Source: Amoebidium appalachense
Lineage: Eukaryota > Protista > Ichthyosporea
DNA length: 64,000 bases
Direction of reading: 5' to 3'
Assembly: GCA_963693365.1 (NCBI GenBank)
Contig: CAVNZM010000014.1
Coordinates: 2,294,001 to 2,358,000 of the forward strand
Shown here: positions 11,701 through 13,739 of the stretch, piece after piece
How positions within the stretch are numbered: the stretch's first letter is position 1
How the letters are laid out: each line of letters opens with the position of its first letter
Made by a program: the position numbers and the translations under genes
The notes under the pieces: generated by a model
Database searches by the model: none
The model's input: only the letters and a program-made list of their open reading frames with translations
What the model was told of the DNA's origin: nothing

Positions 11701-13739
11701 GGGGTTTGGGGGGGGGGGGGGGGGGGGGGGGGGGGGGGGGGGTGAACAAGTATGATGCTCCCTACACTCTTCAACTCTCGTTGCTGCCCTGGTCGAAGTG
11801 CCTGGACTCTGGTGTATGCCGCTTGTTGTGTTCTTGACAAAAACGGGAGTATGGATGTGGGTTGGGGTTTTTCTTTTTTTCGTCTTTTCTTTTCTTTTCT
11901 CGTTTTCTTGTTATTTGTGTGCATGGGACGAGGGCCGGGGGCGGGGGGGGGGGGGGGAGATCTTCATGGTGGGCTCCATTTCAAGGCATGCATGTGCATT
12001 TACCCACGTATACTGACACGTACACACCTATACACACATTCACTTTCACTTTACACAGACGTGTATACATGCATACTCTTACACATGCACGCACACGAAC
12101 ATGGTACACACACACACGTCCATATACACGCTCACGTCGACACACACGGTACACATGCACATAAATATACGCACACACATACACTCACTCACAAATGCAC
12201 ACGTTCCCATTCACACCCTTACTCGTTCACATACACACACGTTCACACACACAAACACACACGTGCGCGCATACACACACGCACACACGCACATACACGT
12301 ACAGTGGCTACAGTAGGGCACGTCGACGGCAAGGAAGTCAAAACACGTACACCTACACACACACACGTACATCTTAATATGCACACATAGACAAAGTACA
12401 CATCACACACACCTATGCATACAGTGGCACGTAAACACACGCGTACACACACACTCACACTCACACGTACACGTACACCTTGAGACACACACGTACACAC
12501 ACGTACAGTAGCTAGGACACGTAGATGGCAAGGAGATCAAGACACAAACACATACACACAATTGCTTTTGTATATACACATACACACACCACACGCACAC
12601 ACACACGTACACACACAGAGAGAGAGACACACACACACACACACACACGTACACATACATATACACGTATACGTACACGTGCAGTGGCTAGGGCACGTAG
12701 ACGGCAAGGAGGTCAAGACCAACATGATCACGGCCTCTGTGCTGCTCCAACTGCGCAGCCACATCCACCGTGTGTGTGACTTCATGCACTCCGTGCTGCT
12801 GGTCTTCATTGTGAGAGATTTGAATACTCTGATTGACAGGCGCGTGTTTGAACATACCCCTTTCGACCTCTATTCTCCGGCCCCTCCCCCCCCCCCCCCC
12901 TCCCCCCCCCCCTCCCCCCCCCTCCGTGCTGCTGGTTTTCATTGTCAGAGATTTGAACACTCTGATTGACAGGTGGTTGGGGTGTTACAATATACCCTTC
13001 AAGCCTCCCTTACCCCCCCCCCCCCCCCCCCCCCCCCCCTCTCTTCTCCCTCCCCCAACCACCAACAAACATATCAACGCACACGCGCGCACACACACAC
13101 ACACACACTCTCTCTCTCTCTCTCTCTCTCTATATATATATATATATATATATATATATATATATATATATATCTCCCCCCCCCCCCCCCCCCCCCCCCC
13201 CCCCCCCCCCCTCCACCCCCCCCCCCCCCCCCCCCCCCCCCCCCCGTTCCCCTTGGGGCACCCCCTCTCTCGCCCTTGCCTTCTACCTCAATCTTGTTGG
13301 GGTAGCAATCTGTTGCACTTGCCTTCCCGTCTTCTTTTTTTTCTTCCCTCTGCTCGACCTCTTCTTTTATGCTTTTGTTTCTATTTTTCGTTTTTTGATT
13401 TTTCTTTTCTTTTTTTTTTTCTTTTTTTTTTTTTTTTGGGGGGGGGGGGGGGGGGGGGGGGGGGAGACGAGAAGAAAAAGAAAACTTGCTGCAAAGTCAC
13501 AGTGTTTTCTTTGGCTGGCTGGTGGTAGACATATGGATGACAAGCCAGCTCGACTAACTCCACACACACACACACACACACACACACACATACTCGCGCA
13601 CACGCGCGCGCACACACACACACACACACACACACACACACACACACACACACACACACACACACACAGGCACCTGCATAACAGCATGAAGGCTGTGTTT
13701 ATGCTGGACGACAGTACCATGCTACCAGTCGAAGAGTAG
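5782..13739 (+). CDS. MIT-domain protein with a conserved C-terminal domain of unknown function (fungal-type)
   Basis: Phase-consistent exons 5782-5922, 7055-7168, 7654-7719, 8448-8555, 9628-9783, 10599-10781, 12685-12839 (GC donor) and 13670-13739. MIT helices: [35 protein letters not shown], followed by [20 protein letters not shown]. The start is uncertain; it may be an ATG-only exon at 5165-5167 (ATG|GTACAT). Confidence 0.8.
6798..6890 (+). repeat. Isolated tail-type-2 fragment of the same element family, in an MIT-gene intron
   Basis: tattatgcatactc.ttatgtgtggtttgcactctgcatt matches 58216-58262, 59322-59360, 60711-60760 and 62447-62490. Confidence 0.75.
9891..10080 (+). repeat. Two degenerate intronic copies of the 3' end of exon 9628-9783 plus its donor
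   Basis: acttggctgagtt..gtgctcgat.ggctgcag|gtacgtac is repeated at about 9891 and about 10011. Confidence 0.9.
10939..11820 (+). repeat. Four to five degenerate intronic copies of the 3' end of exon 10599-10781 plus its donor region
   Basis: Copies resembling ctgccaca..tgttt..gcccagtgctttgt..aggtgtgtg at about 10939, 11129, 11254 and 11527, with a weaker one at about 11752. Confidence 0.8.
12302..12990 (+). repeat. Intronic copies of both ends of exon 12685-12839
   Basis: 5'-end copies including the CAG acceptor at 12302-12345 and 12506-12545; a 3'-end copy with donor at 12922-12990. Confidence 0.9.

What the first reader, a model, noticed from the sequence alone, without database searches (positions are those of the whole stretch)
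12302..12990. Intronic echoes of exon ends that diverge almost only at synonymous positions
SEEN, relative to exon 12685-12839: copy 12302-12345 has GTA>GTC, GAG>GAA, AAG>AAA, ACC>ACA plus a 5-nt insertion. Copy 12506-12545 has GGG>GGA, GAC>GAT, ACC>ACA, GTC>ATC and TGG>TAG. Copy 12922-12972 has GTC>GTT, GTG>GTC and AAT>AAC. That is 10 of 12 substitutions synonymous by my count, while the co-duplicated intron flank after 12972 is much more diverged. Neutral decay would give mostly non-synonymous changes. INFERENCE: options are fragments captured from diverged alleles or paralogs, gene-conversion templates, alternative mini-exons or splice sites still under selection, or a haplotype-mixing/basecalling artefact.
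Basis: partly seen in the sequence, partly recalled or inferred. Interest (0 to 1): 0.7.

Follow-up and report, generated by a model that had tools for sequence, protein, structure and literature searches.

The report
Decaying splice-junction repeats in one gene
In one gene of what is likely a single-celled relative of animals, the ends of three neighbouring exons recur as short copies in the introns; these are likely dead local duplications whose excess of silent differences likely comes mostly from the working exon changing only at silent sites, a kind of repeat already described in lancelets and humans.

Summary
The copies are real. Short-read contigs hold the 12302 and 12922 copies, and a spliced contig skips the 12922 copy. 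They are three of nine scored copies of exon ends at four consecutive junctions of one MIT-domain gene, the layout of amphioxus 'mirages'. The 10-of-12 count falls to 8 of 10, because ACC>ACA sits at the copy's edge and was counted twice. The other six copies fit that (22 silent, 28 replacement). In the four-copy array, exon-side changes are 3 silent and 0 replacement; copy-side changes are 10 and 20, which is neutral. The flagged trio keeps a modest, post hoc excess (P 0.008-0.07), mainly from copy 12922 (3 silent, 0 replacement, diverged flank). Capture from a diverged working allele therefore stays open at about 25%, though the sampled strains look too alike to supply such an allele. Unchecked notes from this scan report similar echoes in other genomes.

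The parts
12685..12839 (+). Working exon (phase 0 acceptor, GC donor) of a MIT-domain gene
   Evidence: Open frame; X9 contig of 1526 nt matches 12690-12841 with 0 differences and continues into the next exon
12302..12344 (+). Copy of the exon's acceptor and first 11 codons; 3 silent changes and a 5-nt insertion that puts TAG at codon 4
   Evidence: X9 contig covers 12301-12434 with 0 differences, in unspliced form
12420..12433 (+). Possible short deleted remnant of the same acceptor copy; too short to score
   Evidence: sequence and alignment; not significant on its own
12506..12543 (+). Copy of the acceptor and first 11 codons; 2 silent and 2 replacement changes (first codon TAG), all four G:C to A:T transitions
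   Evidence: not checked in reads
12922..12972 (+). Copy of the last 51 nt of the exon; 3 silent and 0 replacement changes; preceded by poly-C, followed by a GT donor
   Evidence: X7 DNA contig
12973..13016 (+). Co-duplicated intron start, diverged from 12840-12884
   Evidence: 26 matches, 12 mismatches, shuffle P 0.0035
13670..13739 (+). Last coding exon, joined to 12839 in the spliced contig
10599..10781 (+). Upstream exon whose 3' end founds a four-unit array
   Evidence: open frame; splicing not shown in reads
10937..11576 (+). Four decayed copies of that exon's last 17 codons and donor (10937-10986, 11127-11178, 11252-11302, 11524-11576)
   Evidence: scores 69, 49, 38 and 56 against a shuffled 95th percentile of 30 and maximum of 39; polarised counts
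9628..9783 (+). Upstream exon whose 3' end founds a two-unit array
   Evidence: open frame; splicing not shown in reads
9892..10059 (+). Two copies of that exon's last 12-13 codons, donor and intron start (9892-9929, 10012-10050)
   Evidence: scores 56 and 54 against shuffled maximum 39; 3 silent and 4 replacement unique changes (read)

Best explanation
The introns of this gene hold short head-to-tail copies of the neighbouring exon end with its splice site; they likely arose by local misaligned recombination or replication at the flanking C-run, CA and CT tracts, were likely multiplied as 120-270 nt units, and are likely non-functional and decaying neutrally. Only the copy attached to the rest of the exon can encode the protein (shown for the 12839 donor, inferred for the other junctions). 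After duplication the copy changes at all sites, while the exon changes almost only at silent sites, so a pairwise comparison counts silent sites twice and gives dN/dS near 0.5. Transition bias in codons that mostly end in G or C raises the silent share further. Small numbers, an edge artefact and the choice of three copies out of nine account for most of what remains. Patchy unequal exchange would give copy and flank different ages (inferred).
For: Nine scored copies at four junctions; within each cluster the copies share a breakpoint next to a simple repeat. The six unflagged copies give pN/pS 0.37-0.57, P 0.11-0.73 against 0.5-0.55. In the four-copy array, states shared by most copies against the exon are 3 silent and 0 replacement (P 0.014-0.03 if they were neutral copy changes); copy-side changes are 10 silent and 20 replacement, as neutrality predicts (P 0.16-0.46). 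The copies carry stops, a deletion and insertions. GC3 is 70% over 285 codons. Six of the 7 substitutions in the two 5' copies are G:C to A:T; 9 of 20 possible such changes there are silent, so 4 of 6 is ordinary (P 0.26). The 9892 copy shows the reverse of the 12922 pattern, a near-identical flank with 5 coding-part differences, so flanks are not a clock. Three DNA samples hold 29-44% of the stretch's 31-mers, roughly 4% divergence or less, against 20-37% silent divergence between copy and exon. The layout is described as 'mirages' (PMC3087553, passages) and the 0.5 threshold is in use (PMC3532220, passages).
Against: The trio still exceeds the 0.5 null: P 0.008-0.066 by mutation spectrum, 0.008-0.11 after allowing a choice among three exon groups; trio against the other six, Fisher P 0.08. 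The 12922 copy has 0 replacement changes over 31-35 sites (P 0.012-0.022 with the flank as clock, 0.08-0.13 without). The two 5' copies share none of their internal silent changes, so exon drift can explain these only if the copies were made at different times. The 3 shared silent states in the four-copy array would look the same if its founder came from another allele. All 4 flagged junctions of 58 tested are consecutive in one gene, which independent random duplication does not explain. No outgroup was found to polarise changes.
Confidence: 0.62

Rival explanations
1. Allele capture. Out-of-register recombination between strongly diverged working alleles or hybrid subgenomes inserted another allele's exon end and intron start. 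The copy then differs at silent and intron sites from birth, and is a fossil of a working allele.
For: The 12922 copy has silent (3 of about 15) and flank (12 of 38) divergence of similar size and no replacement change. The trio's residual P is 0.008-0.066. Clustering in one gene would suit a recombining tract. Unchecked notes on other genomes propose the same (leads only).
Against: The sampled strains look about 4% diverged or less (rough, assumes even divergence, and one holder may be the window's source). X7, under another species label, has the same 30-nt flank after the 12922 copy. The 9892 copy has the exon's own intron flank and 1 silent to 3 replacement shared changes. The two 5' copies share no internal difference from the exon. 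Copy-side changes in the largest array are neutral.
Confidence: 0.25
2. The 12922 copy is used in splicing, either as a 24-nt in-frame microexon (12949-12972, AG created by GTG>GTC) repeating eight residues, or as an alternative GT donor to the exon's GC donor, and is kept under selection.
For: An AG preceded by pyrimidines, 24 nt and a GT donor are present; the intron start is stop-free up to the poly-C.
Against: The only spliced contig seen joins 12839 to 13670 (contigs drop rare forms). Read-through adds 133 nt and shifts frame as assembled, and the C-run differs in X7. A microexon would constrain only one of the three silent sites. The 5' copies reach stops at once.
Confidence: 0.05
3. The copies were captured from a diverged paralogue elsewhere in the genome.
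For: It would also give silent-biased differences.
Against: Of 5 X9 records laid at 80% likeness, none is a second diverged version of the exon (one run, contigs only). Copies sit only beside their own exon end. The genome is not held, so absence of a paralogue is not shown.
Confidence: 0.04
4. Assembly, basecalling or haplotype-mixing artefact.
For: The region is full of long homopolymers and simple repeats; no contig spans the whole stretch, and the 12506 copy was not covered.
Against: Contigs from two runs of different studies hold the 12302 and 12922 copies with their non-exonic neighbours. Graded decay over four units is not what two haplotypes would give.
Confidence: 0.02
5. The copies are maintained as gene-conversion templates for the exon.
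For: Mosaic ages of copy and flank suggest that exchange occurs.
Against: Conversion into the exon would be tolerated for silent variants and so would remove silent differences; most copies carry stops or indels.
Confidence: 0.02

Closest known systems
Amphioxus 'mirages' (Adh3, globins BflGb6 and BflGb9, troponin C, PGBD5); PMC3087553 and PMC3902484, passages read
   Same: Tandem copies spanning an exon-intron boundary, at both acceptor and donor ends; units of similar size (150-160 bp in the globins); many keep AG or GT; normal splicing is unaffected.
   Different: Here in a likely ichthyosporean; units are spaced by variable simple repeats (about 120-270 nt); some are more decayed (down to about 69% against 81-100%); four consecutive junctions of one gene are affected. 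The word 'synonymous' does not occur in the main text of either paper; supplements not read.
Human F7 intron 7 37-bp VNTR and similar junction-spanning minisatellites (CBS, lamin B2, PDGF, 6-16); PMC1557585, abstract and passages read
   Same: The first unit spans the exon-intron boundary; downstream donor copies stay silent and the most upstream donor is used, as at 12839 here.
   Different: F7 units hold only 4 exon bases and identical donors; here 36-51 coding bases are copied and have decayed, and acceptor-side arrays occur too.
Dead gene copy compared with its working parent (omega below 0.5 criterion for retrocopies); PMC3532220, passages read
   Same: Only values significantly below 0.5 are taken to show constraint on both copies; six copies here sit near 0.5.
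   Different: These are DNA-level partial duplications with intron flanks, not retrocopies.
Intron gain by tandem genomic duplication (potato RdRp, PMC4974935; Drosophila, PMC2891723); search listings and abstract starts only
   Same: Local tandem duplication inside a gene that involves splice signals.
   Different: No new intron or exon is shown here; the copies only lengthen existing introns.

Membership tests
Mirage / junction-spanning minisatellite | Tandem direct copies whose unit spans an exon-intron boundary and lies in the adjacent intron | tested here: met
Mirage / junction-spanning minisatellite | Both acceptor-side and donor-side boundaries can be duplicated | tested here: met
   acceptor 12685; donors 9783, 10781, 12839
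Mirage / junction-spanning minisatellite | Many but not all units keep AG or GT | tested here: met
   AG at both scored acceptor copies; GT after 9929, 11302 and 12972; lost after 10050 and 10986
Mirage / junction-spanning minisatellite | Normal splicing is not disturbed | tested here: inconclusive
   Met for the 12839-13670 intron in one contig; the other three junctions were not seen in reads, and contigs drop rare isoforms
Mirage / junction-spanning minisatellite | Copy number varies between haplotypes or somatically | tested here: inconclusive
   No contig spans an array
Mirage / junction-spanning minisatellite | Concerted evolution among units | tested here: inconclusive
   Derived states are shared in a mosaic way among the four units and flank ages are uneven; too short for a tree
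Functional duplicated (mutually exclusive or cassette) exon | Own acceptor and donor enclosing an open frame | tested here: not met
   The 5' copies reach TAG at codon 1 or 4; donor-side copies are partial; only the 24-nt piece 12949-12972 has both signals
Functional duplicated (mutually exclusive or cassette) exon | Inclusion in transcripts | tested here: inconclusive
   Not seen in the one RNA-like run laid; raw reads were not available
Sequence under purifying selection on both copies | Pairwise dN/dS significantly below 0.5 | tested here: inconclusive
   All nine pooled 0.31-0.46, P 0.04-0.42; trio about 0.1-0.16, P 0.008-0.07, post hoc; other six 0.37-0.57
MIT domain (PF04212) for the host gene | Pfam match at gathering score | tested here: inconclusive
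   Exon 5782-5922 alone scores 17.2 bits, E 0.0054, below the cut-off of 30; the domain is split across exons, which were scanned separately

The most novel reading that the evidence does not exclude
Junction copies such as 12922-13016 are pieces of other, strongly diverged working alleles, inserted beside the resident exon by out-of-register recombination in a hotspot gene. Introns would then archive extinct alleles and record cryptic sex or hybridisation in a unicellular relative of animals.
Probability: 0.25. Interest if true: 0.55.

Novelty: new member of a known kind. Interest (0 to 1): 0.25.

Why it matters
As most likely read, it extends mirage-type junction repeats to a likely unicellular holozoan and gives a small worked example of why a dead copy compared with its live exon looks silent-biased, with exon-side and copy-side changes separated in one array. 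If the allele-capture reading held genome-wide, such copies would be a record of past allelic diversity and recombination in a lineage where these are hard to observe (my knowledge, not from a call).

Tried and rejected
No whole genome is held, so no genome-wide scan was possible. Searches for relatives of single exons found nothing usable: none among 55 candidates, none among 26, one hit with 16 short stretches that looks like a repetitive protein and was not followed, none of 594 pattern matches in metagenome contigs, no atlas hit above 0.79. These are weak negatives from 51-61 residue queries, and they leave no outgroup. Only one read-laying result exists (12280-13000); the upstream arrays and the other joints of the gene were not seen in reads. 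X1 and X4 gave no cover on the exon or copies there, which is no evidence of absence. The weak match of exon 7055-7168 to 7386-7481 (score 33, shuffled maximum 35) and the 12420-12433 remnant were left out of all counts. A strong G:C to A:T bias was considered; over all nine copies it is mild (20 changes on 192 G/C bases against 15 T:A to C:G on 171), so that spectrum is the generous end of the P range. Gene-body methylation in another ichthyosporean (PMC11244446, passages) was read as background and not used as evidence. In the junction survey, exons of four other genes were placed by eye, two introns were skipped because a boundary was not found, and a few boundaries may be off. Searches for a printed account of silent bias in junction repeats found none relevant; the library lacks most subscription papers, and the original Adh3 mirage paper was not seen. 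No notes exist for this genome.

Full report
Setting. The window is eukaryotic and intron-rich, with long C, G, CA and CT runs. No genome is held. The single-exon gene at 3316-3987 (minus strand) matches v-SNARE proteins (PF05008, PF12352); its nearest named relative is from Sphaeroforma arctica at 57% identity, so the organism is likely an ichthyosporean. The finding lies in a plus-strand gene with coding exons at 5782-5922, 7055-7168, 7654-7719, 8448-8555, 9628-9783, 10599-10781, 12685-12839 and 13670-13739 (further upstream exons may exist). The first of these matches the MIT domain weakly (E 0.0054, below the gathering score).

Observation. Of 24 runs listed for 9600-13760, four were laid on 12280-13000. 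A 1526-nt contig of X9 matches 12690-12841 without difference and runs on into the exon at 13670, so the GC donor at 12840 is used and the downstream copy is skipped. A 158-nt X9 contig matches 12301-12434 exactly, in unspliced form. A 196-nt DNA contig of X7 holds the 12922 copy with poly-C before it and the same 30-nt flank after it. The 12506 copy fell in a part the tool skipped. An artefact is therefore unlikely.

Recount. ACC>ACA lies where the copies run into CA repeats and is shared by both 5' copies, so it is a breakpoint or at most one event. Without it the trio has 8 silent and 2 replacement changes plus a 5-nt insertion (8 and 3 with another gap placement). The trio is not alone. 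Aligning each of eight exons to its flanking introns gave nine scored copies: two after exon 9628-9783, four after exon 10599-10781, two before and one after exon 12685-12839. Within a cluster the copies begin or end at nearly the same exon position beside a simple repeat, so there were about four founding duplications, three of them later amplified. An annotation-free scan of the window found no other clear case except possibly 49611-49829. Of 58 junction tests over five hand-annotated genes, 4 were positive, all consecutive in this gene.

The null. If the copy is neutral and the exon constrained, silent differences build up on both branches and replacement differences on one, so pairwise dN/dS is about 0.5 (derivation; the threshold is used for retrocopies, PMC3532220, passages). 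The six unflagged copies give 22 silent and 28 replacement, pN/pS 0.37-0.57, which fits 0.5 and rejects 1 (P 0.0006-0.04). The four-copy array separates the branches: where most copies agree against the exon, the changes are 3 silent and 0 replacement; changes on the copies are 10 silent and 20 replacement, matching a neutral share of 0.24-0.31. The copies are not independent of each other, so pooled P values are approximate. In the two 5' copies, 6 of 7 substitutions are G:C to A:T, and 9 of 20 possible such changes in those codons are silent; GC3 in the gene is 70%.

What remains. For the trio, 8 of 10 has P 0.0002-0.0045 against copy-only decay and 0.008-0.066 against the 0.5 null; allowing a choice among three exon groups gives 0.008-0.11; trio against the rest, Fisher P 0.08. 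The strongest single case is 12922-12972: 3 silent and 0 replacement changes, with a flank of 26 matches and 12 mismatches; P 0.012-0.022 using the flank as a clock, 0.08-0.13 without. That is the signature expected of a piece of a diverged working allele. Against it: the 9892 copy shows the reverse pattern, so flanks are unreliable clocks; three DNA samples under three species labels hold 29-44% of the stretch's 31-mers, about 4% divergence or less if evenly spread, far below the 20-37% silent divergence between copy and exon; and X7 has an identical flank. An older hybrid origin is not excluded. No outgroup could be found. The clustering of four copy-bearing junctions of different ages in 3.3 kb is unexplained.

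Function. Use of either 5' copy's AG meets a TAG within four codons. Use of the 12972 donor adds 133 nt and shifts frame as assembled; of five upstream donor-side copies checked, four would shift frame and the in-frame one has lost its GT. One possibility is left: 12949-12972 has an AG, 24 nt and a GT, and would add eight residues in frame; it was not seen in the one spliced contig.

Comparison. The arrangement matches amphioxus 'mirages', tandem copies of either boundary that keep splice signals and do not disturb splicing (PMC3087553, PMC3902484; passages), and the human F7 intron 7 minisatellite, where the most upstream donor wins (PMC1557585; abstract and passages). The name 'mirage' came to me through a scan note and was then checked in the papers. 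Defining layout features are met; haplotype length variation and concerted evolution were inconclusive. I found no printed treatment of silent bias in such repeats, within a library that lacks most subscription papers; supplements were not read. Unchecked notes from this scan describe similar echoes in at least eight other genomes, three favouring allele capture; they are leads, not support.

Verdict. A real feature and a new member of a known kind. Neutral decay plus silent drift of the exon is the best reading (0.62), allele capture the main rival (0.25). Interest 0.25.

Noticed in passing
window 12840-13669: GC-AG intron; the downstream copy of the exon end carries a canonical GT donor that the spliced contig does not use.
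   Followed up: partly
window 12949-12972: Possible 24-nt in-frame microexon inside the 3' copy (AG created by one of the silent changes); not seen in the one spliced contig.
   Followed up: partly
window 9783-12839: All four copy-bearing junctions out of 58 tested are consecutive in one gene and of different ages; cause of the local hotspot unknown.
   Followed up: partly
window 5719-5781: An ATG followed by a CA repeat is in frame with exon 5782; it could be a His-Thr repeat N-terminus, a short GC-AG intron or plain intron sequence.
   Followed up: no
window 3316-3987: Intronless v-SNARE (VTI1-like) gene on the minus strand, divergent from the MIT-domain gene; nearest named relative 57% identical, from Sphaeroforma arctica.
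   Followed up: partly
window 49611-49829: Tandem duplication of about 109 nt, 93% identical, spanning a pyrimidine tract and AG; the second copy has a 1-nt insertion. Possibly another junction copy; gene structure not resolved.
   Followed up: no
window 27616-27802: Minisatellite with a 35-nt unit, about five near-identical copies.
   Followed up: no
window 57321-62535: A family of 120-240 nt repeats recurs several times in introns of one large gene, with weaker matches near 50123 and 50430; possibly a small mobile element.
   Followed up: no
window 24687-26160: Intronless stretch of consecutive ORF pieces broken by stops, leucine-rich-repeat-like by eye (recalled resemblance, not tested); likely a pseudogene.
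   Followed up: no
window 36454-39487 and 41424-46158: Spliced genes resembling an Smr-domain protein and a SMUG1-type uracil-DNA glycosylase (recalled from motifs, not tested); no junction copies found in the introns tested.
   Followed up: partly
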